Below are positions 1 to 64,000 of a DNA stretch of 64,000 bases, in pieces. Each line of letters starts with the position of its first letter. Positions within the stretch are counted from its first letter, which is position 1. The DNA lies in the IMG/VR virus record IMGVR_UViG_3300033463_000097, one strand, 5' to 3'. The notes under the pieces were generated by a model, which was not told the DNA's origin, did no database searches, and saw nothing but the letters and a program-made list of their open reading frames with translations. This DNA is from a virus. The position numbers were made by a program, and so were the translations under genes.

Positions 1-3000
1 TATTGTGTTACTGCAAATGATAACAGTAATAATAACAATACAGATAACGATTGGGTTGCAATCCAAACGGCTGTTGAAGGCCCGTTATTTAGAGGCTCAA
101 CTCAATATACCGGAGGATTGGTTTTAATTTCTAATGGCACTACCGGGCTAGTATCAGAAAGTGGATATAGTATTGGAGCAAGTATACTCAATGGTAATAT
201 TAATAAAATAGCATATTATTCATCTACCAATACTATTGGTCCTGCATCAACTCATTATATAGATAATTCTCGCATCGCAATTAATAGTACAGGAATGCGT
301 ACTACTGGCACAGGAAGTGAAACGTTATATGTAAATGGCGATGCTGCAATTTATGGCGGATTAAGATTTTATAATAGTAGCGGAAGTAATTATTCAGAAA
401 TTTCTTCTACTTTGTCCGCTAATACATCATAGAATGTTTATTTACCAAACTATGCTGGCAATATTTATATTACTCACACTGGTTCTACAACCGCTGTTGG
501 TAGTTCAACATAGCCAGTATATGTTGATACTAATGGAAGAATAACTGCATTGGGATATACAGCAGGTAGACTATATTATAGTGAAAGTACAACATCGTTC
601 GCTGAAACTAGTCATTATGCAACAACTACAAAACTTGCAATAAATGGAGCGGCAATTCCAGATGAAAACAGTCCTACTTTATATGTAAATGGTAATACTC
701 GCATATATGGTAAAGTTATGGAAGGAAATTCAAACACCGTAGCATAGGGCGCTAATTCCCATGCAGAAGGCTCATGGACGATAGCTTTTGGTGATTTATC
801 TCATGCTGAAGGCTATTATACAACTGCTTTTGGAAATGACTCACACGCTGAAGGTTCTGGTTAGTTATTAAACGGAAGTAGTTAGGCATCAATTCAGATA
901 GAAGGCAGCGGACCAAGTTATACTGCTTCAAGTACAATTCCAACTGTTATAAAAGTGGGTATGTTTTTACGAGATGCTAATAATAATGTTAGAAAAATTA
1001 CAGCTATCAATGGGACTACAATTACAGTAGATTCAGCTTTTCCTGGAGGTTCATTAACTAGTGCCACTGTGTAGGTTGGCACTGGAGCAGGAGGCAGTTG
1101 CTCTCATAGTGAAGGAGTAAGAACAACTGCTTATGGTAATTCGTCTCATACTGAAGGAACAAATACAATTGCAATGAGTAGAAGCTAGCACGTATTTGGT
1201 GAATATAATATTATTGATACGACTGGTACAACAAGTACGCAAGGAACATATGTAGAAATTGTCGGCTGCGGTAATAGTGAGGAAAATAGAAAAAATGCCA
1301 GAACATTAGAATGGACTGGTACTGAATCTATTGCTGGAAACTTTTTGCCTATGGCTTCTAATACTTAGGATATTGGTAATACAGATACATATTGGAATAA
1401 TTTATATATTAATAATGAATATATAAATGGTGGAATCGTTAGATCTTAGGTAGAAGTTGATAATAATACTAATTATAAAATTCATCATATTGTTTCTCCT
1501 GGAGGAGGAGCTTTACATCCTAGCCAGTATAGAGGTTTAGTTACCGGGGCTTTAAAAATTAATTTACCAATAAGTTGGACAGGAACAATGCTTCGTTTTT
1601 CAATTGACATTTACGATTCTCGCGCTAATTCTTCCTATACTCATGGGGCCATAGCCACATACGTTATAGGAGGTTATTTAAGAAATGCTAGTGGAACTAA
1701 TAAATGGGAAAGGGTTACCGCATATTCCTATGGCACTGGCGCTAATCATAATTTATCAGTCAGATTTTAGTATGATAATACTAATTCTAAATGTTGTATA
1801 ACCATAGGCGAAATTAATACTTTATGGAATTATCCATAGGTGATAGTTAGAGATATATGCGCCGGTTATCTTGGTAACGAAGCTAGTAGTTTAGTAAATA
1901 ATTGGGATATAAGTTTCGTTAGCAGCTTTACCGGTTTAACTGAAACCGCTAATACAATAGTTACTAATCCAGCATAGTTTGGTGCGTCTATATTTAAACC
2001 TAATTCATCTGGTAATTTTGTAAGAAATTGGTATTTTATTGGCGCTGGCAATGGTAATATAGGAGTTTTTCCAATTAATACTCGAAAAGAAAATATTTAT
2101 ACTCAAAATGCTTATGGTATTGATAATTGGTATATATATAGTGCAGGATCAATGCAAATTGATCAATATACTAATGATAATTTTAATACTTTGCGTTTTA
2201 ATGGTAATTCTACAACTAGTGGTAGTATAATGCGTTAGATATTATTACCAAAAACATTAGCGATAGGAAATACATATACTCTTACTGTAAAAGTAAGTGG
2301 TATTTAGACGGGAACTCCCCAGGTTTCTGCGGCGTTAGTTGGTTTTAATGCAATAAATCAAAGTACAATTAATCAAATGGGATCAGTTACACTTAATCCA
2401 GGTGTTAATACAGTAACTGTAACTATAACATCTAGTAATTTAACTTCTAATTATTTAGGTGTTTAGATTACATCTCCAAAAGCTGATAATACTCAAGCAA
2501 TTTGGATACAAGCTATTAAAGTAGAACAAGGTTCTGTTTCAACACTATGCGATTAGTCTACTGGAAATTTATTAGATACTCCTCAATATAATGAAGAAAT
2601 ATATAGATGTAAAATAGGTTTTTTAACTTATGAAGAATAGTTATGGGTTTAGGGATCTGGAATTTTTGAAGGGAATCTTTAGACTGGAATAAAAACTTCC
2701 ACCTCACAAAGAGCTATTAATTTATTTACTACTGGAGGACAAATATCTTTAGTAAATAATGTTGGTGATACTAGTGAAAGAGGATTATATGTAAGAAATA
2801 AAACATAGCAAGAAAATAATTCTACTGGTGCGTGGGTATTTGCGGTTAATTAGAATAATGCAATTAGTAGGCTTGCAAATTTTGAAACAAATATAATTCC
2901 TAACGCACATAATACATATACTTTAGGTGCAAGTGGAACATCTTCAACATAGAGACATTGGAAAGATGCATATATAGTTACTACACATGGTTCTTTAGAT

Positions 3001-4302
3001 GGTAATGCTACTACGGCAACAACACTATAGACTGCAAGAACTATAACTATTAAAGATAATTCTGGGACATATAGTGGGGATAGTGTTTCATTTAATGGTA
3101 GTGCAAATATTATTTTAAAGATGCCAGCGACTATTGAAGCAACTAAATTAAAAACCGCAGTAAATTTAACGATAAAAGATAGCGATTCTTCAAACTCCGG
3201 AACAGCCGTTTCATTTAATGGCTCAGCCTCGGTAAACTTGCTTTTACCAGCGACTATTAAAGCGACATTACAAGGAAATGCTTCTACTGCATCAGCTTTG
3301 AGTCCAGGGAGAACTATTAATGGTACTACTTTTACTGGAGCAAGCAATATTACTACTGCAAATTGGGGTACTGCACGAAATATAACAATTGGAAATACCA
3401 CAAGAGCCGTTAATGGAAGTACAACCTATTCTTGGTCATTAAGTGATATTGGGGCAGCTGCCGCAACTCATACTCATAGTTATCTTCCACTCGGTGGAGG
3501 TATTATGACAGGATCTATTGGATATAACCATAGCACATAGAAAGGAACAGATCCTAGCTCTGCAGAAAGCTGGGCAATTAATTTAAAAGATTCTACAGGT
3601 CAAAACAATAATAGCCATTTTATGGCAAGGCTTTATCATGGGTTAGATGCAACTAATGGAAATAGAATTGGTCTTTATGTATATAAACCAGTTGCTGGTA
3701 CAACTAATGCAAGTTTTGTTATGCAATATATTAAAACCAATAGTGTTGCAGTAACAACCTTAGCAGGTAGTATATTAAAAGTTACATATACTGCCGATGC
3801 AACTAATCTTACATCAGGAGCACTTTAGGTATCTGGAGGTATTGGATGTGCAAAAACAATTCGTGGAAATCTTGTTTATGGAGCAGTCTGGAATGACTAT
3901 GCTGAATTTAGAAAAACAGAAATAAAAATAGAACCAGGTAGATGTATTAAAGAAATAGGCAATGATTCACTTGAATTAACTACAAAGCGTTTAGAACGAG
4001 GATGTGAAATAGTATCTGATACATTTGGATTTGCTATAGGTGAAACAGAAGAGTGCCAAACTCCAATTGCATCTAGTGGGCGTGTTCTTGCATATCCATA
4101 TGAATCTCGTGAAGAATTCGCTAAACACATTGGATGGGCAGTATGTTCTGGCCCAAATGGAACTGTTTCAATTATGACAGAAGAAGAGGAAGAAAAGTAT
4201 CCAAGTCGCATTATTGGTACAATTTCTGCGGTTCCCGATTATGAAGAGTGGGGCAGCGGAAATGTAAAAGTTAATGGGCGAGTTTGGATTCGTATTCGAT
4301 AA
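1..4302 (+). CDS. Giant tail fibre / receptor-binding protein (5' partial). Frame 1 reads through about 25 in-frame TAG codons and ends at TAA 4300-4302.
   Basis: All + strand track ORFs in this region (118, 550, 1588, 3121, 3622) are in the same frame. That frame has no TAA or TGA for 4.3 kb, only TAGs. The protein has fibre-like repeats (SHAEG..T.A.GN.SHxEG; TLYVNG..IYG) and a C-terminal region resembling the intramolecular chaperone of endosialidase-type fibres. Confidence 0.75.
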
Positions 4303-4312
4303 ACAAAAAAAA

Positions 4313-4346
4313 GGGAGTAGGTTAATATCCTACTCCCTTAATTTTA
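4313..4346. terminator. GC hairpin gggagtag/ctactccc followed by a T-run, shared by convergent genes
   Basis: The stem is 4313-4320 / 4330-4337 with the loop ttaatatc, followed by ttaatttta. Confidence 0.6.
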
Positions 4347-4642
4347 TTAAATATCCTATTTGTAACTTCAATAATTTCTTCGCCATAAGTCGCAATCAAA
4401 TCTGCCACTAATTCTTCCTAATCAACTGTCATATAGACTTCATAACTAAACATTGCAGCGTGCGTAATTTCATGACATAGAACCTTTTTGAGTTTCCAAC
4501 TAGGTATATTCCAACTAAGATAAATGGTCTTGGTATCGTCATCGCAAGCCGCGAGCGCATATTCCCCATTCTATCTCTTTACTTTTGGATGGTTTGGTGA
4601 AACTCTTTTAATGTTCCACCAAACCCCGTTAATATTAAACAT
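4322..4642 (-). CDS. small HExxH (HEITH) metallopeptidase-like protein (ImmA/IrrE-like), 2 in-frame TAG
   Basis: Hand translation gives MFNINGVWWNIKRVSPNHPKVKRqNGEYALAACDDDTKTIYLSWNIPSWKLKKVLCHEITHAAMF..., where q marks an in-frame TAG here and in the other hand translations. The gene overlaps the next one in a different frame. Confidence 0.4.
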
Positions 4643-5186
4643 TTTGTAACTTTGTTACCAAAGTATTCATTTTACGCTATAATAGTGTCTTCTCTTCTGG
4701 AGTGGCGCCCGCAATCATTTCAGTAATATCACTAGTCAATTCTTTCATATATTCATCTAGTTCTTGCATTTTCTTTGGCTAATCATGATTCATTTCTTTT
4801 GATTCCATATACATCTTGCGCTTTTGGCCGGCGCGACCTTCTCTATCATCGTGCATCATAGGATACATTTCTTCATAATAGTGAGTGTCGCCTCCAGAAG
4901 GCTAACCATCATAGTACATTCTACCATGGCGATAATCTTTATCTCTTTCGCCATATGGATAATATGGTAAGTATTTCTCCATATAGTAATATGTGCGTTT
5001 TTCATCGCCGTCTTCTTTTGCTTCCTCCATCGCTTTAACAACGGTGCAGTAGTAAATAGATTTAGATAAATCATAAATCATATCAATAACTTCGCCAAGT
5101 TCTTTTGTATCAACGCAGCGCAAGTCCACCATTTGAGTTTCAACTTGTGAAATTAATTGATCTTTTATCGTTTTCATTCTTTCCAT
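4635..5186 (-). CDS. hypothetical Tyr-rich protein, 3 in-frame TAG (extends track ORF 4902..5186)
   Basis: The codon after 4902 is cta (TAG on the minus strand). The same frame continues to TAA at 4635-4637. An RBS gagaggg lies upstream of the ATG at 5186. Confidence 0.5.
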
Positions 5187-5218
5187 TATGCAACCCTCTC
5201 AATCATAAAGTTTGCATT

Positions 5219-5611
5219 CTAGACATCTACTGGAATAGTGCTTGTATTTTCAACACTAACCTGACTGCAACATCCAACAGGAACATCAATAAAAATGCCA
5301 GCACTGACATTATTATATTCTTCAACGGCTGCTGGAGTTGAAATCATTGTTGAAGTAGCAACTGGTTCACCGTTAATTGCAATTGCTAAAGAAATAGGCC
5401 CTACTGTTTCGCCAGTAGGAACAGCGATATTAGCACTAAAATTAACGAGGAATCTTGCGCGAAGCTGTCCATTTGTCAGCCCGCGCAAGCCAACCAGTCC
5501 ACTACCCTCTCTATGTATCATAGAGATATTACCTGGCACAGCAGTTTCGGTAAAAATAACTACCTAACCCACACCAACGGTTTGAATAGCATTAGCGGTT
5601 ATTTCCATCAT
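5219..5611 (-). CDS. hypothetical (possible structural protein), 1 in-frame TAG
   Basis: A GGAGG RBS precedes ATG 5611. The track ORF 5219..5539 is the C-terminal part of this gene, in the same frame. Confidence 0.5.
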
Positions 5612-5623
5612 GTATCCTCCTTA

Positions 5624-6412
5624 TCAAGCGACAAAGCCATTGCTTAAAGCGCCGCCATAGAGGGCATTATAACCATATGTGCCATAAATACCAGTGTAGG
5701 GGTTAGCTACAAGGTATGCTGGCTGTGCGGCAGGACGCAATGCGTCAATGAGATAAGCATTTTGCTCACTCTGAGAAATTTGGCCCTTAAGAGCCTGATT
5801 TTCAGTTTGAAGAGCGGTAATGCGGTCTTGTACTAAGAAGTCAAGAATAGCACGAGTATTATTGTTAGCATTATCAATAATATCACGAGCGCCAGTTGTA
5901 ATAGCAGCACGATCAGCGCACGCCTCTGTTGCCAGATTGTAATTGAGAGCTGCAAAACCATTAGAGATATTATTGTTTGTCTGGCAATTGCCAAGCTGTA
6001 AAGCAGAAGCATTTGCTGCTAACTGACTTTGGATAGCATTAGTATTTTGTAATCCAGATACTGTACCTGCATTAATAGCCTGAATTGTTTCAAAACCACT
6101 ATTGGCGATTTGAGCCTGTGTGCCCATTAATCCCTGGTTAACTGAAGCAAAACCACTGCAAACACTACTACTAAGATCACGTATTCCGCTACTAATTCCG
6201 GCAACATCAAAGTTATATGCTACATCGGCAGTTACATTACCGGCGCCTCCGCCGTAACCGCCCCAACCATTTCCCCATCCGCCAAAAGCGAATAAAAACA
6301 GTAGGATAATCCACCAGCCGCCGGCGCCAAAACCATCACCGAACATGCCACCGCGGCCGCCAGAAACGGCAGCAATGTCAGATAAACTATAACCTTCGCT
6401 AGAATTGAACAT
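5624..6412 (-). CDS. glycine-rich membrane-associated protein (GGWGNGWGGYGGG segment followed by a hydrophobic stretch)
   Basis: This is the intact 262-aa ORF, with a GGAGG RBS. Function is unknown. Confidence 0.55.
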   Translation of the reverse strand: MFNSSEGYSLSDIAAVSGGRGGMFGDGFGAGGWWIILLFLFAFGGWGNGWGGYGGGAGNVTADVAYNFDVAGISSGIRDLSSSVCSGFASVNQGLMGTQAQIANSGFETIQAINAGTVSGLQNTNAIQSQLAANASALQLGNCQTNNNISNGFAALNYNLATEACADRAAITTGARDIIDNANNNTRAILDFLVQDRITALQTENQALKGQISQSEQNAYLIDALRPAAQPAYLVANPYTGIYGTYGYNALYGGALSNGFVA

Positions 6413-6424
6413 TTAAGTTCCTCC

Positions 6425-6661
6425 TTATAATCCAAATTGTTGTTTGAATTTAGCGAATTCAGTATCAAAGTCGAGACCTCTTTGAGCACATAAATTGCGA
6501 GCAACTTGTTCAATTCCTTTACCATCATTGTTCTGCGCCATTTTTAGTAGATTCTAACCCATTGGCGTATTACCCATTCTTTGTTCTAACATATTCATTG
6601 CTAATTGCTGAGGATTTTGTCCTCCTCTTATCGCTGCTATAAATTGCATTATGTTCTACAT
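6425..6661 (-). CDS. small hypothetical protein, TAG as 2nd codon and one internal TAG
   Basis: GAGGAGG RBS with 7 nt spacing to ATG 6661. The frame is continuous to TAA 6425-6427. Confidence 0.45.
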
Positions 6662-6675
6662 TCAGAAACCTCCTC

Positions 6676-7062
6676 TTAAAATCTGAACTCTTCTTTAGAA
6701 GTCTGCTGCGATTGAGTTTGATCAGGACTCTTCTCAACAAGATTAGTCTATGCTAATGCCTATTTAATTGCGGTTAATGCAGAATTAAATTCTTCTCGCG
6801 TTACGTATTCATTCCCCGCCGGGGCGGTTGGAATATCTTTTAATTCATACATATTTAATGCTGCGGTGCCGTCCAGATTGCATTGTTTAGTATAAATCTT
6901 CCCGTTGGCCAAATCGGGAAAAAATGTTACCGAGCCATCAAAATCGACCGCCGCCGCTCTTACTTCTTCCAGTCCAGATACCGGACGCCCCTTTAATCCT
7001 ATCATTTGCCGAGCCGTTGTATTTGGTGGAGTATAATAATAATTTTGTGGTTGATATGGCAT
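6676..7062 (-). CDS. hypothetical protein, 2 in-frame TAG after track ORF 6760..7062
   Basis: AAGGAGG RBS. The stop listed at 6760 is cta (TAG on minus). The frame continues to TAA at 6676. Confidence 0.55.
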
Positions 7063-7404
7063 TACTGACTAAACCTCCTTTTTTATAAAATTCATGGAAT
7101 TTCTTCCACTACTTCATAAAATTTCGGATAGCAAATTTTACCAAAAACGCCCAAAATTTTCCGGAAAAAATTGGAAACGGGCAAAAAGTATCAAATTATC
7201 TCTCATAGAAATTAATAAGTATAGTGAGAGTAAAAGGAGAACTTAGAAAGGAGTTGAGTGTTCTTGATTGCAGAAATAATAATCAAATACTGGGTACAAT
7301 GGGTTTGCGCTCTTATTGCTGGTGGTGTCATTCTATTTGCGAAACACTATGTTAAATTACAGAAGTAGTCTATGGAAGAAAAATGGAAAGAAAAAGAAAA
7401 GAAT

Positions 7405-7746
7405 ATGTGTGGTAAGATTATTACCACAATAGAAGAAGAAATTAAAAAAGTTGAATCTGCTTCTAAAGAAGAAGATTAGAAAATCCATTGTGAATTAGAT
7501 GAAGTTCATACTGACATAGATATTGTTAGCTCAGGAGTACTCTCTATCTAGGGTAAGCAGTTTAGAGATTATTGTGAATATCTTTTATAGGCAGGACATT
7601 ATATAACCGTTGATGAATATGAAGAGTTTGAATCTGAATATGAAGTATATAAATGCCTTGGCGGCAATCACCGTGGCGATGCTCTACATGCTAGAGTAGT
7701 AGATAAGGTCCAAGCACAAATGCGTGCAGAAAATAAAGTTGAATAA
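7405..7746 (+). CDS. acidic hypothetical protein, 3 in-frame TAG
   Basis: Frame 1 from ATG 7405 to TAA 7744 reads MCGKIITTIEEEIKKVESASKEEDqKIH... I tested ATG 7373 as a start and it is out of frame. Confidence 0.45.
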
Positions 7747-7750
7747 ACTA

Positions 7751-7792
7751 AAAAAGGGGCGGTAGTCAATTAAGACTACCGCCCCTTTTTTA
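7751..7792. terminator. bidirectional intrinsic terminator (ggggcggtagtc / gactaccgcccc, flanked by A-run and T-run)
   Basis: A perfect 12-bp stem sits between convergent genes. Confidence 0.65.
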
Positions 7793-7795
7793 GTT

Positions 7796-8206
7796 TTACG
7801 CAGCAATTTTTATCATCTTATTTTCTTTAACTGCTTCTTCAATTTTTGTTTTAATATATTCATCCAAATCGCCGATAGCCTCACTTAAATATCTATCGGC
7901 CTCTTCTGTCATTGTAACAATGATTGTTTCATAGACACGCTTAAAAGCCTCTTCTTGTGCTTCTTTTGTAAATGCATTCTTTTCTTTAAGAGCATCTACA
8001 TAAGTTTGATTAACCGCAATTACCGCAGAAACAATTGTGTCATTCAACATTTCCACATACTTCTGGACTTTTTGGTCTTTTGCACTGGCCTTGATTTCAT
8101 TTGCCTTTGCATTAATCCATTTTACTGCATATCCAACAAGAGCAATTAGAAGTGGAATTAACACTGTCTAAGTAATAGTTTTTAATAGTTCTTGAAAGTC
8201 TGCCAT
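7796..8206 (-). CDS. membrane-anchored protein, Holin_LLH-like (one N-terminal TM, then a charged helical tail), 1 in-frame TAG
   Basis: The protein reads MADFQELLKTITqTVLIPLLIALVGYAVKW... A GGGGAG RBS precedes the start, and the frame matches track ORF 7796..8164. Confidence 0.4.
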
Positions 8207-10323: not shown

Positions 10324-10352
10324 ATTATATCATATTTTTTTTATTCATGCAA
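10324..10352 (-). promoter_or_regulatory. sigmaA-type promoter TTGCAT-17-TGaTATAAT
   Basis: The reverse complement gives TTGCATgaataaaaaaaatatgaTATAAT upstream of the 10311 start. Confidence 0.55.
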
Positions 10353-10364
10353 TTTTATAATTCT

Positions 10365-10817
10365 CTAATTTGGACTCCCGCGCATCTCCAACGTAATATC
10401 TCTGTTGGCCAATTCAAAACGGCCATCTATCAAAACATCAGCCATTTCTAATATATGATTTAATTTTGTTTCATTACGAGCTTGAAGTTCCTCGTAGGTA
10501 TATCCAGTCCAAATATAAACTGTGACCATAGGGAATTTTTCTTTAACGCTAGCAACTACTAATTGTGTTAAAAATAAATTTTCCGGACATAAAGGTTCTC
10601 CGCCCATAATACTTAAATTTCTTTGAACACCATTTTTATCCATTGATTCAATAATTTCATTTAATGTATCGCTAGTAAATTCTTTACCACCATCAAAATC
10701 CCATGTCTCTGGATTATGGCAGCCGTAGCAATGATGCGGACACCCCTATGTAAAAAATGTGAGATTTATACCTTTTCCAGCGGCAATATCATTTTTGATA
10801 ATTCCTGCGTAACGCAT
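10365..10817 (-). CDS. nrdG: anaerobic ribonucleotide reductase activating protein (radical SAM), 1 in-frame TAG
   Basis: The N-terminus reads MRYAGIIKNDIAAGKGINLTFFTqGCPHHCYGCHNPETW (CxxxCxxC motif). The C-terminal part matches track ORF 10365..10643. Confidence 0.8.
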
Positions 10818-13051
10818 TATTCCATCACTCCAACGTGCTTGGTTCTATGATGAACCTCATCTTGTTTTCCAAGATTAAAAGCAGTGGTATAATTTCCGGT
10901 TAAATATCCGGTTACACGACGTAGCTGTTGAATATTGTGTCCGCCGCAAGCGGGGCATGTATCATTAATCTCACCTTGAAAACCGCAATCCAAACAAGTA
11001 TCACTTGGAACATTAATTGCGAAATATGGAATATCCTTATCCATAGCATAATTTACAATTTGTTCTAATGCTTCTGTATTATGCACAGCAGAAGCATCAA
11101 GTTCAACGTATGTAATACAACCCGCACTAGAATATCCGGTTAATTGACTTTCAATATCAATTTTTTCAAATGGACTGACTTGACGCCATACTGGAACATG
11201 CATACTATTTGTAAAGAACTCTTTATCGCTAACATTTAAAATAACTCCATACTTTTCGCGGAATTTCTTCAATGCAGTATAGCAAAGATTTTCTGCAGGA
11301 GTATAATAAACACCAAAGTTTAGTGAATATTCTTTCTTAAATTCGGCGCAGCGGTCTTTAAATAGTTGCTCTATTCTTTTAGCCAACTTCATTCCATCAG
11401 GAGTAGTATGGTCGCAACCAATTAGAATTTGTAAGCATTCTGCCAATCCTAATTGACCAATAACAATAGTGCCATGTTTAAGAGCGCTTCGAATTCCTTC
11501 TTCTGGAATATAACCTGCCATTGTATGATTTTCATACATAAATTTTGCACTTGAAGCATCTTGTGAGCAAATCCAATTAAAACGCTCAATTAACATATCT
11601 TTTGCTTCATGGATTTTTTTATCCAGGAGTTGCATAAATACTTCAACGATGCTATCATCATATTCACACATATATGCTTCTTTTGCCATCATAGCCAACG
11701 TTGGAAGAATAATAGTTACTGGACAGATATTGCCGCGACCATCTTTCAGCTGGCCGAGACCGTTTACATCCCACCCATTTGCGGTGCGGCAGCCCATTGT
11801 GCTAAAATATGTTCTCGGGTCATTAATATCATATCCTGCGTTACCAGACCAGTCAACATTGGCATAGTTTGGATATAAGCGTTTTGCAGTAGATTGTAAT
11901 GCTAATTGATATAAATCATAGTTGGGGTCTCCTGGCTTACGATTAACGCCTTTCATGCATTGAAATATTCCACAAGGGAAAATAGATGTTTTATGCAATT
12001 TGCCTAATCCTTCAATACTAACATCTAGTAATGCTTTTGTAACCATCCTTCCTTCTGGAAGAGTACATGTGCCATAATTAATAGAAGTAAAAGGCAATTG
12101 ATTTCCGCTTCTGGACTGAAGTGTGTTGAGGTTGTGGTACATTCCTTCAACGGCTTGATGGACTTCTCGTTCTGTCATATTCATAGCATATTGATAAACT
12201 TTATTCATTGTATCCTTATCAATATCTGAAAGTTCTTTATAACTAATGCTTTCAATAGGTTCATTTACAAAAATAAACTCATTAGCACGCTAGTAATTGG
12301 CAAGATAGATTAAACCATCTTTCCAATGTTTATAAAAACTTTTTCTCACATATGGAACCATAGTCCAGTCAAGATGAGTTGCACTTACTCCACCAAACTG
12401 TTGCAGACTTTGCAACTGAAAAATTACTGCTACGAGCTGGAACGCTGTGTTCACTGAACCGGCCGGCCGCACATCTGTTTGGCGAGTATTAAATCCATTG
12501 GCAAGTAAATCATCGAATGGAATACTTAAACAGTTATGAGAACCAACAGCATAGGCGTCAAGGTCATGAATATAAATCATATTACCTTCATGATTCTCCC
12601 TTGCCATTTTTGAAACTAAATTATCCAAAGCGTATTGCTTTGTCATATAGGAAGACGCTTCACCAATGCGGCCACCGAATGAATGTTCGTCAACATTAGC
12701 ATTCTGATTTTGAACGTTTCTTGCTTCCAGCTTTTCTCCAATAGCATCAAAGAAGTCAGACTTGATTTCTCTTGCTACTTCTTTCTTATAACGAAAACGA
12801 ATATACGCACGAGCCACATCAGGGCGTTCAGAGCGCATTAAATAATTTTCAACTAAATCTTGAATATCTTCAACTGAATAAGCATCAGCATCTATGCTAC
12901 ACTGTCCATAGATATCGTTTGCAATATCTCTTGCGGTATCATCTTCGTATAGCTATCCATCAACTTCAATAAAAGCACCATTGATAGCATTTATAATTTT
13001 TTGTTTGTCAAAAGGAACTCTTGTTCCGTCTCGTTTTACAACTTCTATCAT
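10817..13051 (-). CDS. nrdD: anaerobic (class III) ribonucleoside-triphosphate reductase, at least 2 in-frame TAG
   Basis: It has an ATP-cone (MIEVVKRDGTRVPFDKQKIINAI) and a glycyl-radical C-terminus (CGFQGEINDTCPACGG...RRVTGYL). Track ORFs 12953.., 12290.. and 10817.. are in one frame, and the separators at 12953 and 12290 are cta (TAG on minus). Confidence 0.85.
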
Positions 13052-13128
13052 ATATATCCTCCAATCTAAAAATTGTAGTATTTTTTTTGGGCCACTACAA
13101 TATTTAGGTTTTGTGATTAGAAAATTAA

Positions 13129-13410
13129 TTAGTTTTGCCCGATGTGGCGAATGAGGTAGTCTATATACCATTTAGCCTTTTCCAGGTCTTGGACACCATT
13201 CTTATGCTTCCATCGCCACAGATATTTAATTGCATTTGCGGTGCATACTGCTTCAATACCTTCAAGCCCAGTCGTGGCCGCAGCAAGCCCATCAATACAT
13301 TCAATACCCCCCGCCGTGTAATGGGCGGGGTGATTTACCATATCATTTGCTGCTTTATCTTTTTCATATTGCTCTGCTATATCAATAGCCCGCTTGTAAT
13401 AATCATCCAT
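13129..13410 (-). CDS. DUF3310-family protein (HPAHY motif)
   Basis: Contains VNHPAHYTAGGIECID. This family often sits next to phage polymerases. Confidence 0.55.
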   Translation of the reverse strand: MDDYYKRAIDIAEQYEKDKAANDMVNHPAHYTAGGIECIDGLAAATTGLEGIEAVCTANAIKYLWRWKHKNGVQDLEKAKWYIDYLIRHIGQN

Positions 13411-16400
13411 TATTCAGCCCCATACCTTTCTGTTGTCAATTCTAAATCTGTATTATTAACTATTTTGTTTATTTTATATAACTGATGCCCCGCAGAAGAA
13501 GCATACTTTTTCGTAATAAAGTCATCGCCGGAGCGAATACCTTGAACTACAATCATTTGTCCGCGGTTAAACCAACTCTTCTCTTTAACTTTCTTTGTCC
13601 CATCTTCTTGCTTCTCAGAGATTTGTTTATCAAATAGAGCAAAATATTCTTTACGGAACTTGACATTAACTACTCCGGTAGGAGTGAGAAGAGATACACT
13701 ACTCTTTACCTTATTCTTTGCTATGCATGTGCCGCAGATGCGATACAGTTTAAAGATATTAATTGTCTTGCCGGCCTTAGTAAATGTTCTTTCTACTTCT
13801 GGATTTTCTGGCAATTTAAAGAAATCGCTTATACCATACTTCTGGAAATTAATATCTTTTAATTCGTGGTCATGATAATAGAAACACATCGCTTCCATTT
13901 CCCATGATGAATAATTACCTTCGGCATATTTATCCCAATCCTGTTTAAATATCAGGCCATTGAGATTATTGAGAATAGCTTCTTTATCGGAGGCAATCCA
14001 CTCTCTAAATATATCCATCCAATGTTGGTATTCTTTTTCCCAAACTTTAATTTCGAGAAACTCATTCTCTTGAATTAATGCATCATATCCCATTTCTTGT
14101 AGAAACGATATTGCGCGTGCATCTAAGAAATACCATGTTGGACTTTCTTTATTCTTACAGACTGCTTTAAGATAACGATTGAACTCATATACTCTACGAG
14201 CCATTATTCGTTCATCTGTATCTTCGGGCAGCAGATTATATCTAATAAGCCCCGGCAGATTTTGTAATGTCAAACGAGATTTCTTATCACACGTTTCCCA
14301 TATGAACCAGGCCATACATAATTTGCGCTCCATCATATTATCAAATGCTCCACTTTTAATTAATGAAACCATTGCCTGTTTCTTTGGATTTACTTTATAA
14401 TAAAAATCTTTTGGAGATACATATGGACGCTTTGCAATAATATCTTTTACAACATCATCATTAACATTTAACAATGCCTTCATACCGAATAGAATTTGAT
14501 TATTTTCAATATCGGGTTTAAATCCGAAGCCTGAACGATTTATATCAACTGTACTTACTTTAATTCCGGCGCTGATAATGTCTCCAAGAGCCTTTGCGAC
14601 TTTTCCATAATCAGTACTTGTGTTCTTGCTTTCAGTTTCTTCTTCTTCCTCAAAATCTTCTTCATCCTCTTCAAGAGAGCCGCTATTTACAATCAAACAT
14701 GCGGTATCCCAATAAATTGGGTTCCAATGTGTCGCTATATATAATGTCTGCGCTCCAATGAAAGAATACGCTAGGGCGTGAATACGAGAGAATGAATAGC
14801 CCATCTGAGGACCGCATCCATGTTTCCATACGTATCGACCAAGAGCTGGAGATTTAGCCTGGTCTAATACTTGCTGCCGCAATGCTGGGATTTTCTTCAT
14901 TTGCTTTTTACCAACAATCTTGCGGGCTGCGTTAGCATCTGCTAAACTGAAATCGCAAATATTTTTATCCATTAGCATCAACATTAGACTTTCCTGGTCG
15001 GGAGGAACGCCATAGTCTGCGAGAAAGTATGGTTCAAGAGTTTTCTGCTCTTCCTTTGTTAATCCTTCTCTATCCATTTCTTTATACCATAGACTTATAT
15101 CATTCTTTTGCTTATAATATTTATCCAATGGTCTCTCTTCATCTTCTTCGCCCATTAATCGCATCAAACCATTTGCGGAAGACATTTCTTGGATAGAATG
15201 AGGTTTAAGTTTCTTTGCTACCTGTGCTCCAACTTGGCTATCAAATTGGAATGTATTAATTACACTTACATTGCCTAGTGCTTCCCAAATCTTTTCATCA
15301 TTAATGGGAAGAACATTAGGATGGAAGTATTTATCATAAACTTCTTTAAGAGATAGATTTTTTTCAATCTCACCATCTTCTTGCAGAAGTTGAATTGTTT
15401 GAACTAATTTATCTTGAACTTCGGTTACGAGGAAGTCATATTTTGTGGCGCCGCAATATTCTACATCATGTAGATTAAACTGACTGATAATCTCTCCTTT
15501 TGGAGTTCTCATAAAAGCACAATACTCAAATGGGTCACCATCTAGTAGAATAACACCAGAAGCATGAGAAGAGCGTTTATTAATTACACTATTAATACCC
15601 ATGATGATTTCCAGTAGTCCAGGATATTTACTTACTTCTCTTATAAATGTGGGAATTGGTTTACGATTCTTCTCTTCATTACCATTGATAACATCATCAA
15701 TATCCCATAGAAAACCACGCTCAGATGGAATAAGAGATGCCATATACTGTGCCTGGTCTACATCAATACCATCGGGATAGTCATCACTACGATAGCCTCG
15801 GCAAGCAGTTAGGATAGCAGATTTTGTGCCTTCGGTTCCAAAAGTAGCAATTCTAACACAACCAAGGTTATCTTTGGCCCATTGCGGCACGTCATCATTA
15901 AACATCTTGCTGCGCTCTTCGGCAATCTTCTTAATAACTATGCCAACTTTACTTGGACACAGGTCAAGATCAATATCGCCCAACTCAACACGTTCATCAT
16001 TAAGATAGCGGAAGAACGGCAAATTCCAAACGATTGGGTCTAACTGTGTAATACCCATTAGATAATGGTTTAGAGCCGCGCAACTTGAGCCACGTCCTGC
16101 GCCCACCATAGAACCGCACTCCCACATCAAATCAATATAGTGTTGAAGTGTATTTGGATAACGGAACATATTAGTTTCCAGTTTCTCACCAATGATGCGT
16201 TTTACTCTTGCTTCTTCTTCAAGACGTGCTAGATATGTATCGTCACCAGTTTCTAATAAATGGTTCCAACCTTTTCCTAATTCGTTGAGTTTATCCCAGC
16301 ATTGATTGACCCAATATCTATCTTGAATATCTTCTGACGCCAAAAGATATTTAAGATTTGGGAACTTTTCCATTTCATCAGCATATGGATTATTGTTTCC

Positions 16401-17363
16401 AAAACCACCACGAGGATAATTCTTTACTTCTACACTTGGAATGTTCTGTTTGCGGAAAAGAGAGAATGGCTGTATTTTATCCTGTATTTCAAGAGTGTTC
16501 TTTATAATCACATCAGCCCAATTTTCTTCGTGAATACTCTGTATTAATAATTCTTTTAATTCATCATATGACATTAGATAGGTGAATTCATAGAATGCAT
16601 CAACCTCACGGTCTCCTTCCTTGGAGTTAAGATATGCTTTATGAATTGGTCTATCTTCTGGACGAGCATAGTGCGCGTCGGTTGCTACAACAACTGTCGT
16701 ATGCGTAACTAATGAAATGGATAGAAGCGTTTGATTAACCAATATTTGTTCTGGAGAATTGCCGGGGGCGCACTCCAAATAAAAATCTTCTCCAAATAAT
16801 CTTTGACAAAAGTCAATAAATTCAAGGATTTTATTATAATATAAACGCGCATTATCCATATCACCAATCTTCTGCGCTGTTTTATATAACATAATTAACT
16901 GCGGCAACTCGCCACCAATACATGCGGTTGTGGCAATTAAATGTCCTTTAAATTTGCTGACCACTTCAATTAAATCTGCTTTTGTAGTTGGAACTCTTTC
17001 CATTTTGCGGTCTGTGTAACTTTCCAACCACGCCTTTGTAGATAACTCTTTTAAGGCCCTGTAACCAATAGCATCCTTTGCAATAAGTATGAAGTGATAA
17101 TACTTTTGGCCCGAACCTTTTTTATCTACAAGATATATTTCATTTCCAAACGCCAGTTTGAAGTCTGGGTATTTTTCTTTAATTTCATTGTAATATTTTT
17201 CGGCTTCAACATGTGCTGCTAGGACTTCATGGTCTGTTATAGCAACACCTGAAAGTCCTAATTTAATTGCAGTATCTATTAACTTTTTTGGGGAATTAAT
17301 AGCATCAAGAAGCCGAATGTTTGAATAATAAGTATGATTATGATAACTAAAATATGATGACAT
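13410..17363 (-). CDS. DNA polymerase III alpha-subunit-like replicative polymerase (N-terminal PHP domain)
   Basis: 1317 aa with no TAG. The N-terminus YHNHTYYSNIRLLDA...GVAITDHEV is PHP-like. Confidence 0.8.
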   Translation of the reverse strand: MSSYFSYHNHTYYSNIRLLDAINSPKKLIDTAIKLGLSGVAITDHEVLAAHVEAEKYYNEIKEKYPDFKLAFGNEIYLVDKKGSGQKYYHFILIAKDAIGYRALKELSTKAWLESYTDRKMERVPTTKADLIEVVSKFKGHLIATTACIGGELPQLIMLYKTAQKIGDMDNARLYYNKILEFIDFCQRLFGEDFYLECAPGNSPEQILVNQTLLSISLVTHTTVVVATDAHYARPEDRPIHKAYLNSKEGDREVDAFYEFTYLMSYDELKELLIQSIHEENWADVIIKNTLEIQDKIQPFSLFRKQNIPSVEVKNYPRGGFGNNNPYADEMEKFPNLKYLLASEDIQDRYWVNQCWDKLNELGKGWNHLLETGDDTYLARLEEEARVKRIIGEKLETNMFRYPNTLQHYIDLMWECGSMVGAGRGSSCAALNHYLMGITQLDPIVWNLPFFRYLNDERVELGDIDLDLCPSKVGIVIKKIAEERSKMFNDDVPQWAKDNLGCVRIATFGTEGTKSAILTACRGYRSDDYPDGIDVDQAQYMASLIPSERGFLWDIDDVINGNEEKNRKPIPTFIREVSKYPGLLEIIMGINSVINKRSSHASGVILLDGDPFEYCAFMRTPKGEIISQFNLHDVEYCGATKYDFLVTEVQDKLVQTIQLLQEDGEIEKNLSLKEVYDKYFHPNVLPINDEKIWEALGNVSVINTFQFDSQVGAQVAKKLKPHSIQEMSSANGLMRLMGEEDEERPLDKYYKQKNDISLWYKEMDREGLTKEEQKTLEPYFLADYGVPPDQESLMLMLMDKNICDFSLADANAARKIVGKKQMKKIPALRQQVLDQAKSPALGRYVWKHGCGPQMGYSFSRIHALAYSFIGAQTLYIATHWNPIYWDTACLIVNSGSLEEDEEDFEEEEETESKNTSTDYGKVAKALGDIISAGIKVSTVDINRSGFGFKPDIENNQILFGMKALLNVNDDVVKDIIAKRPYVSPKDFYYKVNPKKQAMVSLIKSGAFDNMMERKLCMAWFIWETCDKKSRLTLQNLPGLIRYNLLPEDTDERIMARRVYEFNRYLKAVCKNKESPTWYFLDARAISFLQEMGYDALIQENEFLEIKVWEKEYQHWMDIFREWIASDKEAILNNLNGLIFKQDWDKYAEGNYSSWEMEAMCFYYHDHELKDINFQKYGISDFFKLPENPEVERTFTKAGKTINIFKLYRICGTCIAKNKVKSSVSLLTPTGVVNVKFRKEYFALFDKQISEKQEDGTKKVKEKSWFNRGQMIVVQGIRSGDDFITKKYASSAGHQLYKINKIVNNTDLELTTERYGAE

Positions 17364-19891: not shown

Positions 19892-20021
19892 ATCTCTCTC
19901 CTTAAAAATAATACGCTAATCTACTTACTATTTCATAATCCTTGATAATTATCTATGGTGAAACATTTCCATTCCAAATATTCTATTTGCAAGTTCCAAT
20001 AACGTTTATTTTTACAGAACC

Positions 20022-21674: not shown

Positions 21675-21692
21675 AGGCTAGTCAACCTCCTT

Positions 21693-22796
21693 TCATAAGA
21701 ACACCCTCTCTTTGAATAATTGTAAAAATACTTCTTTACCCTTATCCACAGGAGCATCCTTATAATCGGTTAACTTATTCTTATCCCAAATAAAACTTAT
21801 ATTTATATAATTTTTATACTTACTATATATACTTACTAATTTCTTTTTCTACTTCTAAAATTCTTCGTCGCCTATATACTAAAACTATCTGTCAAACGCG
21901 ATAATAATTTCTTGCGCTCCTGCGTCCATCAGCAACTACATTTGGAAGGCTGTTAAGTTACTGCCGCAGCAGGCCGCAGAAATATCGCAATCAAAACCAA
22001 AATAGGTTTGATATTTTAATACACTCTTTTCTCCTTCAAACACTATTGCTTTCTTTACTCTTGGAATGTTTCTTCGGCTATTATTAAAATTGTATAAATT
22101 CATTCCAAGAGGATGATTATATAATTGTCCATTTGTATAGACTGGCCTATATTTTCCATATAGTTCACAGTCTGCCTCGCACAGATACCGACCGCGCAGA
22201 CCTATAAATCTACCATCTTTATCGAAGTGCGGAATGGTAATTTGGTCAGCACCGGGGAAGTATCCTATTTCAGCATTATTTAATACTTCTTGTGAAATAC
22301 CTTCATCAAGCCAGGGCCGAATTTTTACATCATAGTTAAAGCGTGATAATATTGTATCATCATATTCTTTTAATACGATATTTGGCACTCTGTTTTGAAT
22401 TTCCTATATACGGCTATATCCTGCGAATATTTTCCAATCTTCCAGCTAATCCGTTTCAGGCGCATTTTCTTCACGCCCAGACAAGCCAAAGCGCTAGGCT
22501 ATCCATCTTACAGCATCATTTAAATCAAAATCCAAATCATGCTGTAATTTCATAACTTTAATACATAATTCAAAAATATCAAAAGTGCCGCAATTACTAT
22601 AACATTGAAATAACCCTGTATTAGAGTAAAAATATAATTTGCGAGACGCTTCCTCGGTCAGAGGATTGTGGCATATGGTTTTTGCTATAATACCCGTATT
22701 TACATACTGCGGTTCGGCGCCCCAATCCTCCAACAAATCAAAAATTTGTTCGTCCGATAAGCAATCTCGTATCTCTTGCTTATCAAAAACTAACAT
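21693..22796 (-). CDS. dnaG: DnaG-type DNA primase (zinc finger plus TOPRIM), about 7 in-frame TAG
   Basis: A CHC2 zinc finger (CHNPLTEEASRKLYFYSNTGLFQCYSNCG) and TOPRIM motifs (AIVFEGEKSV, LLMDAGAQEIIIAFD). The frame runs continuously to TGA at 21693. Confidence 0.75.
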
Positions 22797-26083: not shown

Positions 26084-26101
26084 AGTTACTATCTCTCCTT
26101 A

Positions 26102-30414: not shown

Positions 30415-30443
30415 ATTATACAAAATTTTTTTAAGTTAGTCAA
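30415..30443 (-). promoter_or_regulatory. sigmaA-type promoter TTGACT-17-TGtATAAT
   Basis: Consensus elements; it overlaps the ligA stop. Confidence 0.55.
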
Positions 30444-34741: not shown

Positions 34742-34752
34742 ATTTTATCTCC

Positions 34753-46968: not shown

Positions 46969-46969
46969 A

Positions 46970-63765: not shown

Positions 63766-63841
63766 TGGACGTACTCCTCGGATTCGAACCGAGACCTCAA
63801 GGCTTTGCAGGCCTGCGCCTTAACCATTTGACTAGAGCACG
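63766..63841 (-). tRNA. tRNA-Cys (GCA)
   Basis: A hand-folded cloverleaf: the acceptor stem CGTGCTC/GAGTACG has one G-U pair, the anticodon loop is CTGCAAA, the discriminator is U73, and CCA is encoded. Confidence 0.7.
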
Positions 63842-63844
63842 ATA

Positions 63845-63920
63845 TGGTGCGCCCTCGGGGATTCGAACCCCGACCTGACAGATTAAAAGTCTGCTGTGCT
63901 ACCGCTAACACCAAGGGCGC
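63845..63920 (-). tRNA. tRNA-Lys (UUU)
   Basis: The acceptor stem GCGCCCT/AGGGCGC is perfectly paired. The anticodon loop is CTTTTAA, the T-loop is TTCGAAT, and CCA is encoded. Confidence 0.7.
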
Positions 63921-63926
63921 ATATTA

Positions 63927-64000
63927 TGGTGGGTCATCAGGGACTTGAACCCTGGTCTCGCAGATTAAGAGTCTGGTATAATAGCCACTATACGAATGAC
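63927..64000 (-). tRNA. tRNA, probably Lys (CUU); the 5' end runs off the window
   Basis: The T-arm is CAGGG-TTCAAGT-CCCTG with ACCA at the 3' end. The anticodon loop is CTCTTAA with a 4-bp stem. Confidence 0.55.

What the first reader, a model, noticed from the sequence alone, without database searches (positions are those of the whole stretch)
1..4302. A 4.3 kb open frame with ~25 TAG and zero TAA/TGA: giant tail fibre only readable with TAG recoded
Frame 1 from the window start to 4302 has no TAA or TGA at all in an AT-rich sequence, where a random frame would be hit every ~20 codons. It contains about 25 TAGs. All five + strand track ORFs in the region are pieces of this frame, and the product has coherent fibre-like repeats throughout. 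The C-terminal ~150 aa (from GNLVYGAVWNDYAEFRKTEIKIEPG) resembles the auto-cleaving intramolecular chaperone (peptidase S74-like) of endosialidase-type fibres, but with Asn where the nucleophilic Ser is expected.
Basis: seen in the sequence. Interest (0 to 1): 0.7.

Follow-up and report, generated by a model that had tools for sequence, protein, structure and literature searches.

The report
TAG-recoded giant phage tail fibre

Summary
Frame 1 of window 1-4299 has 25 TAG and no TAA or TGA (chance about 1e-37). It ends at TAA 4300-4302, followed by a terminator hairpin.

It is the C-terminal 1,433 codons of a 2,123-codon tail-fibre gene with 34 TAGs. The real start is a TTG 2,070 nt upstream of the window.

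TAG is read as glutamine:
- Half of the window's genes need TAG read-through, including RecJ, primase and endolysin.
- TAG sites align with invariant Gln in homologues.
- The closest relatives carry two Gln-like tRNA(CUA) genes in the same tRNA array that the window end cuts off.

This is genetic code 15, already described for gut phages.

The S74 reading of the C-terminus is not supported. There is no Pfam hit, no Ser-Lys motif, and the profile comparison gives probability 0.2%. The last 147 residues instead belong to an unannotated family of about 2,600 clusters with an invariant NDYAE motif. That family is a compact, distant branch of Peptidase_G2, the phi29 gp12 autochaperone. The motif aligns with gp12 Ser691|Asp692...Glu695, bridging sequences pass Pfam's G2 threshold, and the model shows a beta-tulip fold. 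I predict cleavage at Asn1298|Asp1299; this is not tested.

Verdict: a new member of a known kind, of modest interest.

The parts
1..4302 (+). C-terminal 1,433 codons plus the TAA stop of a 2,123-codon tail-fibre gene. The start is a TTG 2,070 nt upstream of the window, and the whole gene has 34 in-frame TAGs.
   Evidence: N-terminus MALFKIFKG... matches the N-termini of homologues. PHROG tail-fibre hits.
430..3828 (+). The 25 in-frame TAG codons read as Gln. First bases: 430, 511, 745, 862, 883, 1072, 1186, 1366, 1447, 1768, 1837, 1975, 2236, 2305, 2464, 2554, 2638, 2650, 2680, 2806, 2851, 2950, 3028, 3538, 3826. TAG supplies 25 of the 47 Gln codons.
   Evidence: (aa 396 aligns with Q in 71 of 99 homologues).
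676..1380 (+). YadA-head-like repeat region (aa 226-460, SHAEG repeats). This is the part shared with about 300 fibre homologues.
   Evidence: PF05658, 21.9 bits, below the 25-bit cut-off. (many homologues are annotated PF05658). (phrog_25468).
1369..1929 (+). Segment aa 457-643, shared only with P0009 and P0010 (43-46% identity).
1918..2880 (+). Orphan central region (aa ~640-960) holding 9 TAGs. No homologue, family or structure match was found. I take it to be the receptor-binding part, but that is inference only.
   Evidence: The open frame alone has a chance probability of about 6e-9, derived from the codon frequencies.
3001..3477 (+). Distal-fibre repeat region (aa 1001-1159), ending in a THTH His-x-His motif followed by LPLGGGIMTG.
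   Evidence: phrog_21722, long tail fiber distal subunit, 2.5e-10; phrog_26292..
3859..4299 (+). C-terminal conserved module (aa 1287-1433). It is a compact NDYAE family and a distant branch of the Peptidase_G2 / phi29 gp12 D4 autochaperone.
3892..3906 (+). Predicted self-cleavage site: Asn1298 (3892-3894) | Asp1299 (3895-3897), with Glu1302 at 3904-3906. These align with gp12 Ser691 | Asp692 and Glu695. Cleavage would release a 135-aa fragment.
   Evidence: Cleavage itself is inferred, not shown.
4300..4339 (+). TAA stop (4300-4302) and an 11-bp bidirectional terminator hairpin (4311-4339) between convergent genes.
63766..64000 (-). Start of a tRNA array: Cys(gca), Lys(ttt), Lys(ctt). The window end cuts it off. 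In the closest relatives the same array continues with Leu(taa) and two tRNA(CUA) suppressors.

Best explanation
The region is the 3' two-thirds of a 2,123-codon tail-fibre (receptor-binding) gene. It belongs to an uncultured phage of at least 132 kb, probably infecting Clostridia-class Firmicutes in an animal gut or rumen. The replication module is distantly SPbeta-like.

The phage uses genetic code 15. About half of its genes, including this fibre, contain in-frame TAG codons. A phage-encoded, Gln-type amber suppressor tRNA (anticodon CUA) decodes them as glutamine, while TAA and TGA still terminate. The fibre can therefore be made full-length only after the suppressor is expressed in the infected cell. 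Before that, translation stops at the first TAG, codon 101.

The fibre is a mosaic:
- a conserved N-terminal anchor;
- YadA-head-like beta-roll repeats;
- an orphan central part, the likely receptor binder;
- distal-fibre repeats with a His-x-His motif;
- a 147-residue C-terminal module.

That C-terminal module is a compact relative of the phi29 gp12 D4 autochaperone (Peptidase_G2, beta-tulip fold). I propose that it nucleates trimer folding and then cuts itself off between Asn1298 and Asp1299, using the Asp...Glu pair of the invariant NDYAE motif. This would leave a mature fibre of about 1,988 residues.

Shown here: the open frame, TAG=Gln, the fibre identity, and the homology of the module to G2 rather than S74. 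Inferred: the suppressor tRNA in this particular genome, the timing role of recoding, the cleavage and its exact site, and the host.
For: Open frame.

Recoding is genome-wide:
- With TAG=Q, RecJ (9 TAG) matches phrog_2484 end to end at 7e-150. Primase, GIY-YIG nuclease, endolysin, radical-SAM and PhoH genes also need read-through.
- 30 of 58 ORFs carry 125 TAGs in total.

TAG = Gln:
- RecJ TAG sites 314, 326 and 574 align with Q in 118, 117 and 119 of 119 homologues.
- The standard-code Bacillus phage BUCT083 has Q at 3 of the 8 sites.
- Fibre aa 396 aligns with Q in 71 of 99 homologues.
- In relatives L089 and L095, 3 of 5 TAGs in the C-terminal module fall on positions where other family members commonly have Q.

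Suppressor tRNA:
- Relatives L010, L011 and L012 have the array Cys-Lys-Lys-Leu followed by two tRNA(CUA). The window's array starts identically and is then cut off.
- These CUA tRNAs share discriminator G73 and the acceptor stem with the phage tRNA-Gln, and they pass Rfam's tRNA threshold.

Full gene and start.

Fibre identity.

Relatives' fibres have 819 to more than 2,487 codons with 8-31 TAGs.

G2 link:
- The PDB profile search gives phi29 gp12 as best hit (E 0.0046), aligning WNDYAE with W-S691-D692-F-A-E695.
- Mature gp12 ends at residue 691 (PMC6542822).
- 2 of 14 family members hit PF11962 weakly, and it is the only family hit by more than one member.
- Bridging proteins L100 and L101 carry AVWNDYAE and pass the PF11962 gathering score, at 40.4 and 25.7 bits.
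- hhalign: family versus bridges 97%, E 2e-11; bridges versus G2 90%, E 2e-6.

The module always sits at the extreme C-terminus, NDYAE is present in 145 of 146 representatives, and conservation starts sharply just before it.

Known precedent: bioRxiv 10.1101/2021.08.26.457843, PMC9523058, PMC10607447.
Against: - No suppressor tRNA lies inside the window. I could not retrieve the DNA beyond its end, so the tRNA is inferred from synteny with relatives that are only 74-85% identical in the neighbouring protein.
- Many of the RecJ homologues may themselves come from recoded phages whose Q was assigned by a gene caller.
- The query module does not hit PF11962 at all. It is about 50-90 residues shorter than the Pfam model. 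The direct family-versus-G2 comparison without the bridges gives only 58% probability.
- The AlphaFold monomer model is poor (mean pLDDT 55; the first 83 residues score below 50). Foldseek found nothing significant.
- Cleavage has not been observed for any member of this family.
- TAG-rich RecJ and primase sit among TAG-free replication genes. That does not fit a simple split into standard-code early genes and recoded late genes.
Confidence: 0.8

Rival explanations
1. The C-terminal module is a permanent part of the mature fibre. It could be a beta-tulip trimerisation or receptor-binding knob, and would not be an auto-cleaved chaperone.
For: No cleavage data exist for this family. The module lacks the middle part of the G2 domain. 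Beta-tulip domains also serve as stable trimer interfaces in decoration proteins. The residue before the Asp is Asn here, but Ser or Ala in proven or canonical G2 members.
Against: The module is equally conserved on fibres whose bodies are otherwise unrelated. That is the pattern expected of a folding device, not of a host-specific tip. The gp12 cleavage-site residues Asp and Glu are invariant. Conservation begins abruptly a few residues before NDYAE.
Confidence: 0.22
2. One reading: the C-terminus is a Peptidase S74 (endosialidase-type) intramolecular chaperone in which Asn replaces the nucleophilic Ser.
For: The module is at the C-terminus of a fibre. An N/S-D dipeptide is followed a few residues later by R-K. 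Some homologous fibres do end in true S74 domains.
Against: PF13884 gives no hit at E<=10. No S74 structure appears in the PDB profile search at E<=10. hhalign against five S74 domains from the same homologue set gives probability 0.2%. The S-D-x-R-x-K spacing is not met.
Confidence: 0.03
3. TAG is a true stop. On this view the region is a decayed pseudogene or a string of small ORFs.
For: Standard-code gene callers produce short ORFs here (JGI calls on L002).
Against: The chance of having no TAA or TGA is about 1e-37. Homology runs across the TAGs. Essential genes elsewhere in the window show the same pattern with full-length family matches. Five relatives have the same kind of fibre ORF. The fragments have a median length of 38 aa.
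Confidence: 0.01
4. TAG is read through, but as an amino acid other than Gln. Candidates are pyrrolysine (ARAGORN labels every CUA tRNA 'Pyl'), Tyr, Leu, Ser or Trp.
For: ARAGORN's label. Most fibre TAG sites fall in variable positions where homologues have S, T or A.
Against: Conserved sites are Gln almost without exception. The CUA tRNAs share their acceptor stem and G73 with tRNA-Gln. No Pyl machinery turned up among the window's genes that were scanned.
Confidence: 0.03

Closest known systems
Code-15 (TAG to Gln) recoded gut phages: crAss-like, Lak, and the Garnet/Amethyst/Topaz clades (bioRxiv 10.1101/2021.08.26.457843; PMC9523058); also phAss-1 'Phassvirus' (PMC10607447)
   Same: In-frame TAG in structural and lysis genes, decoded by phage suppressor tRNA(CUA). 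Only part of the genes are recoded. The host uses the standard code. phAss-1 is likewise about 136 kb, is predicted to infect Clostridia, has three suppressor tRNAs, and has a 'destroyed' tail fibre gene.
   Different: No close relative was found in GenBank phage records. The best protein matches are SPbeta-like phages at 37-40% identity. Here TAG also fills RecJ and primase, while the polymerase, gyrase, ligase and helicase genes next to them have none.
phi29 gp12 pre-neck appendage, C-terminal D4 autochaperone (MEROPS G2, Pfam PF11962; PDB 3GQH, 3SUC, 6QZ9)
   Same: A C-terminal module on a trimeric host-recognition protein. The W-x-D-[YF]-A-E-[YF] motif sits at the domain start and aligns with the gp12 cleavage site. 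There is a second shared motif (SDTFGFAIGE against SETAGFVLGE). The fold is beta-tulip. The two are linked through bridging sequences that pass the Pfam threshold.
   Different: After the predicted cut the module has 135 residues, against 163 in gp12, and it lacks the middle insertion. It gets no direct PF11962 hit. Asn is invariant before the Asp, where gp12 has Ser and most G2 members have Ala. Neither cleavage nor ATP dependence has been tested.
Peptidase S74 intramolecular chaperone of endosialidase, T5 pb1 and similar fibres (PF13884)
   Same: Same position and the same presumed job: help the trimer fold, then leave. It is found on other fibres of the same homologue set.
   Different: Different sequence family. 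The Ser-Lys dyad motif is absent, and no profile similarity was found.
YadA-like head repeats of trimeric autotransporter adhesins (PF05658), as found in many phage fibres
   Same: The SHAEG-type repeats at aa 243-290 and the homologues annotated PF05658.
   Different: The score is below Pfam's cut-off (21.9 against 25 bits), and the repeats cover only a small part of the protein.

Membership tests
Code-15 (TAG=Gln) recoded phage | In-frame TAG in genes whose full-length homology is restored by read-through | tested here: met
   (RecJ matches end to end at 7e-150, plus primase, endolysin, radical-SAM and PhoH genes). for the fibre.
Code-15 (TAG=Gln) recoded phage | TAG positions correspond to conserved Gln in homologues | tested here: met
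   (118, 117 and 119 of 119 at three RecJ sites). (a standard-code Bacillus phage has Q at 3 of 8 sites). (fibre aa 396, 71 of 99).
Code-15 (TAG=Gln) recoded phage | Phage-encoded suppressor tRNA with anticodon CUA | tested here: inconclusive
   None in the window. Two are present at the syntenic place in the closest relatives. The DNA past the window end could not be fetched.
Code-15 (TAG=Gln) recoded phage | TAA and TGA are kept as terminators | tested here: met
   The fibre ends at a TAA followed by a terminator hairpin. The recoded ORFs tile the window when TAA and TGA are used as stops.
Code-15 (TAG=Gln) recoded phage | Peptide evidence for Gln at TAG positions | not testable with these tools
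   This needs metaproteomics, as in PMC9523058.
Peptidase S74 intramolecular chaperone (PF13884) | Match to the family profile | tested here: not met
   (no hit at E<=10). (hhalign probability 0.2%). (no S74 structure at E<=10).
Peptidase S74 intramolecular chaperone (PF13884) | Ser-Lys dyad in an S-D-x-R-x-K motif at the cleavage site | tested here: not met
   The query has N-D-Y-A-E-F-R-K. True S74 homologues show SDERLK and similar.
Peptidase S74 intramolecular chaperone (PF13884) | Located at the C-terminal end of a trimeric fibre or spike | tested here: met
Peptidase_G2 autochaperone (PF11962, phi29 gp12 D4) | Match to the Pfam profile above the gathering score | tested here: not met
   The query gets no hit. 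2 of 14 family members hit at E 0.003, below the cut-off. The bridging proteins L100 and L101 do pass.
Peptidase_G2 autochaperone (PF11962, phi29 gp12 D4) | Asp and Glu of the D-[YF]-A-E motif at the cleavage site (gp12 Asp692, Glu695) | tested here: met
   The gp12 mature end at residue 691 comes from PMC6542822. The catalytic role of the Asp and Glu comes from my own recollection of Xiang et al. 2009 and MEROPS, and I did not verify it here.
Peptidase_G2 autochaperone (PF11962, phi29 gp12 D4) | Profile-profile homology | tested here: met
   Direct comparison: 58%, E 1e-4. Through the bridges: 97% and 90%.
Peptidase_G2 autochaperone (PF11962, phi29 gp12 D4) | Tandem beta-tulip fold | tested here: inconclusive
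Peptidase_G2 autochaperone (PF11962, phi29 gp12 D4) | Autocatalytic cleavage after trimerisation | not testable with these tools
   Needs protein biochemistry.
Phage tail fibre | Similarity to annotated tail-fibre families, and a fibre-type N-terminal anchor | tested here: met
   (phrog_2631, 7032, 11518, 21722 and others). (the MALFKI...YFTTDDGKFYID N-terminus is shared with homologues).

The most novel reading that the evidence does not exclude
The NDYAE module would define a large, unannotated family of compact fibre autochaperones. It has about 2,600 clusters at 50% identity, almost all from uncultured Firmicutes phages, and none in 50,697 GenBank phage records. Its invariant Asn-Asp junction would reflect a cleavage chemistry different from phi29 gp12: Asn cyclisation to a succinimide, as in inteins, nodavirus capsids and some autotransporters, assisted by the neighbouring Asp and Glu.
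Probability: 0.15. Interest if true: 0.5.

Novelty: new member of a known kind. Interest (0 to 1): 0.3.

Why it matters
The practical value is in annotation. Standard-code gene calling shreds this 2,123-residue receptor-binding protein into about 35 fragments. Even the code-aware public gene call starts 117 residues too late. Host-range prediction and fibre engineering for this phage group therefore need code 15 and non-ATG starts.

The C-terminal NDYAE module is a clean, very widespread marker for fibre genes in uncultured Firmicutes phages. It has no Pfam, PHROG or NCBIfam entry, so adding it, linked to Peptidase_G2, would annotate thousands of proteins.

Biologically, the window adds one more lineage with an SPbeta-like replication module to the known code-15 phages. 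Its pattern of TAG-free and TAG-rich replication genes could be used to test the idea that recoding times gene expression.

Tried and rejected
- Nucleotide search of window 1-8000 against GenBank phages found nothing relevant.
- tblastn of the C-terminal module against GenBank phages gave no match.
- Pfam, NCBIfam and PHROGs on the C-terminal module gave no hit.
- phmmer of the whole fibre against PDB sequences gave no hit.
- AlphaFold on the module with a 14-sequence alignment gave mean pLDDT 55, and only residues 84-157 are usable. Foldseek against the PDB found nothing significant.
- I tried to reach the DNA beyond the window end to find the suppressor tRNA. One exact-pattern scan of IMG/VR and two of the JGI metagenomes found nothing. 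The ENA contig starts 246 nt inside the window end.
- I looked for TAG-to-CAA/CAG exchanges between this fibre and relatives' fibres. The five IMG/VR relatives share only the C-terminal module, so too few sites were informative.
- A homologue search with the central region (aa 480-965) returned nothing. Since P0009 and P0010 do match aa 457-643, this is partly a limit of the word index.
- Rfam found only tRNAs and no theta or HDV-like ribozymes near the tRNA arrays.
- The Xiang et al. 2009 paper on gp12 and the published Borges et al. 2022 paper were not in the library. I used PMC6542822 and the bioRxiv version instead.
- Pyrrolysine, pseudogene and S74 readings were considered and rejected; see the rival explanations.
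Full report
**Observation.** Frame 1 of window 1-4299 contains exactly 25 TAG codons and no TAA or TGA. The first TAA is at 4300-4302. From the local base composition, 83 TAA/TGA codons are expected in 1,433 codons, so the chance of none is about 1e-37. The other five frames hold 68-186 stops each over the same span, and this is the longest TAA/TGA-free run in the whole window. The five + strand ORFs of at least 60 aa found under the standard code are all in frame 1, and each ends at one of the TAGs. An 11-bp bidirectional terminator hairpin (4311-4339) follows the TAA.

**Where it comes from, and the whole gene.** The window is nearly identical (1 mismatch, at nt 397, in 16.4 kb) to ENA metagenome contig ERZ27257207:k141_9022181 (132,035 bp). 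The same phage appears in JGI sample 3300028797 and in two Logan runs. The public gene call for the fibre has 2,006 residues and starts at an ATG. However, the frame stays open for another 354 nt, and that stretch reads as a typical fibre N-terminus (ALFKIFKGTTEEF...GFAYFTTDDGKFYIDI). A TTG preceded by AGAAAGGGG marks the likely start. Several homologues begin with MALFKI.KG...YFT.DDG.FYID, aligned residue 1 to residue 1. The real product therefore has 2,123 residues and 34 TAGs, and the window holds its last 1,433 residues.

**TAG is a sense codon across this genome.**
- With TAG read as Q, a RecJ-like exonuclease (9 TAG) matches phrog_2484 end to end at 7e-150. Primase (8 TAG), a GIY-YIG nuclease (12), the endolysin (9), a radical-SAM protein (9) and PhoH (3) are likewise restored.
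- The TAG=Q translation of RecJ is already in the public protein collection, 100% identical (P0121).
- In my ORF set, 30 of 58 genes carry 125 in-frame TAGs, which is 33% of their Gln codons. The other 28 carry none.
- The fibre's TAG density (17 per 1,000 codons; 25 of 47 Gln codons) is typical of the TAG-using genes.

**TAG means glutamine.**
- RecJ TAG sites 314, 326 and 574 align with Q in 118, 117 and 119 of 119 homologues.
- In the standard-code Bacillus phage BUCT083, 3 of the 8 aligned sites are Q, in line with the overall 36% identity, and no other residue recurs more than twice.
- In the fibre, the one TAG at a well-conserved position (aa 396) aligns with Q in 71 of 99 homologues.
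- In relatives L089 and L095, 3 of 5 TAGs in the C-terminal module fall on positions where other family members commonly have Q.

**The suppressor tRNA.** The window itself holds only tRNA-Cys(gca), Lys(ttt) and Lys(ctt), at its very end. I fetched 80 related loci through the neighbouring DUF2828 gene. In the closest ones (85%, 85% and 74% protein identity), the array starts with the same three tRNAs in the same order. It then continues with Leu(taa) and two tRNA genes with anticodon CUA. Most other relatives also have a CUA tRNA in this array. These tRNAs share discriminator G73 and the acceptor stem with the phages' own tRNA-Gln; one has the stem of tRNA-Gln(CUG). The neighbouring Leu, Lys and Cys tRNAs have A73 or U73 instead. 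Rfam scores them as tRNA above threshold. For this phage the suppressor is thus inferred to lie 1-1.5 kb beyond the window. I could not fetch that DNA.

**Fibre identity and build.** Along the whole protein, from the start:
- Residues 61-117 and 493-630 match PHROG tail-fibre families.
- Window aa 226-460 carry YadA-head-like SHAEG repeats. They score 21.9 bits against PF05658, just under the cut-off, and about 300 homologues are shared, many annotated PF05658.
- Window aa 457-643 match only two proteins.
- Window aa ~640-960 have no homologue anywhere.
- Window aa 1001-1159 match 'long tail fiber distal subunit' phrog_21722, and the stretch ends in THTH plus LPLGGGIMTG.
- The last 147 residues form a sharply bounded conserved module.

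Five IMG/VR relatives have fibre ORFs of 819 to more than 2,487 codons with 8-31 TAGs. They share only this last module with the query. That is the usual mosaic pattern of fibre evolution.

**The C-terminal module is not S74.** PF13884 does not hit at E<=10. The S-D-x-R-x-K motif seen in true S74 fibres of the same homologue set is absent. A profile of the module against five such S74 domains gives probability 0.2%.

**It is a distant, compact branch of Peptidase_G2.**
- A profile search of the whole 1.84-billion-protein representative library finds 2,606 clusters (1,706 at E<=1e-30). In the 150 listed, the module ends within a residue of the C-terminus, on proteins of 157-2,386 residues.
- NDYAE is present in 145 of 146 representatives examined, and always with Asn before the Asp.
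- No Pfam, PHROG or NCBIfam model covers the module. It is absent from 50,697 GenBank phage records.
- A profile search of PDB sequences gives phi29 gp12 as the only hit below E 0.1 (E 0.0046). It aligns GAVWNDYAEY with GNTWSDFAEY, which puts Asn on Ser691, Asp on Asp692 and Glu on Glu695. Mature gp12 in the virion ends at residue 691 (PMC6542822).
- Canonical PF11962 fibres in the homologue set carry ADYAEYFEW at the same relative place.
- Two of 14 family members hit PF11962 weakly, and it is the only family hit by more than one member.
- A scan of 185,579 species genomes found 13 loci, mostly Clostridia-class MAGs from gut and rumen. Two of them (a Clostridiales Family XIII isolate and a Fusobacterium MAG) carry AVWNDYAE(W/F)FE and pass the PF11962 gathering score.
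- hhalign gives family versus these bridges 97% (E 2e-11, 99 columns, including a second motif, TPIA.SGRVL against FVPVGL.GR). Bridges versus phi29-type G2 domains give 90% (E 2e-6). The direct comparison gives 58%.

**Mechanism proposed.**
- Inferred: early in infection the host ribosome stops at TAG, so the fibre, the endolysin and other TAG genes cannot be completed. Once the phage tRNA(CUA), charged as Gln by host enzymes, accumulates, they are made. This is the timing model of Borges et al..
- Also inferred: the C-terminal module helps three chains register and fold. It then cuts the chain between Asn1298 and Asp1299 (nt 3892-3897), releasing 135 residues.
- I recall from Xiang et al. 2009 and MEROPS that gp12 Asp692 and Glu695 are needed for cleavage and that release needs ATP.

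**What does not fit neatly.** TAG use among the replication genes is bimodal. PolIII-alpha (48 CAA/CAG codons and no TAG; P about 5e-9), gyrase A and B, ligase, DnaB and an SF1 helicase have none. RecJ and primase, which lie between them, have 8 each. TAG-free genes are on average richer in GC (39.2% against 35.5%). Either the TAG-free set is what must be made before the code switch, or part of it was acquired recently from standard-code genomes. I did not resolve this.

**Comparison and novelty.** Code-15 phages with partly recoded genomes, suppressor tRNAs and 'destroyed' fibre genes have been described (bioRxiv 10.1101/2021.08.26.457843; PMC9523058; PMC10607447). They include 136-kb phages predicted to infect Clostridia. 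This phage has no close relative in GenBank. Its RecJ-PolIII pair resembles SPbeta yorK-yorL at 37-40% identity. The finding is therefore a new member of a known kind. The modestly new part is the NDYAE module: a very large, unannotated, compact branch of G2-type autochaperones with an invariant Asn at the predicted cut.

**Verdict.** Interest is 0.3.

Noticed in passing
whole window; for example 13410-17363(-), 32399-36606(-), 30436-32343(-) against 19902-22796(-): TAG use is bimodal. 28 ORFs have none, including PolIII-alpha, gyrase A/B, ligase, DnaB, SF1 helicase, AAA_24 and DUF2828. 30 ORFs use TAG for about a third of their Gln codons, and these include RecJ and primase, which sit between the TAG-free replication genes. 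TAG-free genes are richer in GC (39.2% against 35.5%).
   Followed up: partly
window 46000-52000: A higher-GC island (41-43%) of TAG-free genes that prefer CAG over CAA. It includes an SPFH/Band7 gene, an RNA-ligase-like OB-fold gene and a metallophosphatase. It may be a recent acquisition from a standard-code source.
   Followed up: partly
window 63766-64000(-) and loci L010-L012: The window ends inside a tRNA array. Three public assemblies of this phage also break here. Relatives continue the array with Leu(taa), two tRNA(CUA), and further on Gln(ctg) and Gln(ttg).
   Followed up: yes
L040:1109-1181; L065:4384-4457; L076:3499-3572; L086:4310-4383; L014:6309-6657; L018:6952-7261: Related phages carry other odd translation genes: a tRNA with anticodon TTA (which would read TAA), tRNAs that ARAGORN calls with a four-base 'taaa' anticodon, and tmRNA genes.
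   Followed up: no
upstream of window 1 (L001 18132-18482, minus strand): The public ENA gene call for the fibre starts at an internal ATG. The real start is a TTG 351 nt further up, which adds 117 residues of conserved fibre N-terminus.
   Followed up: yes
window 397: This is the single base difference from the ENA contig across 16.4 kb of overlap: G in the window and A in the contig (Glu against Lys in the fibre).
   Followed up: partly
window 56107-60878(+): A second cluster of fibre-like genes with in-frame TAGs. The 479-aa product of 59070-60509 has three ~60-aa repeats, each with a THTHT His-rich motif, and neighbours XkdV_N-like and XkdX-like genes.
   Followed up: partly
window 28824-29792(-): This gene has the highest TAG density in the window (12 in 322 codons). 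It encodes a GIY-YIG nuclease domain behind an N-terminal hydrophobic segment and a long coiled-coil-like stretch.
   Followed up: no
window 25508-27019(+) and 61023-62693(+): Long stop-free ORFs (504 and 557 codons) run antisense to real genes. They look like shadow ORFs, not genes.
   Followed up: no
window 10341-13171(-): Anaerobic ribonucleotide reductase NrdD with its radical-SAM activase, which fits a strictly anaerobic host.
   Followed up: no
window 1918-2880(+): The central ~320 residues of the fibre match nothing in any protein, family or structure search. This stretch is the natural candidate for the receptor-binding part.
   Followed up: partly
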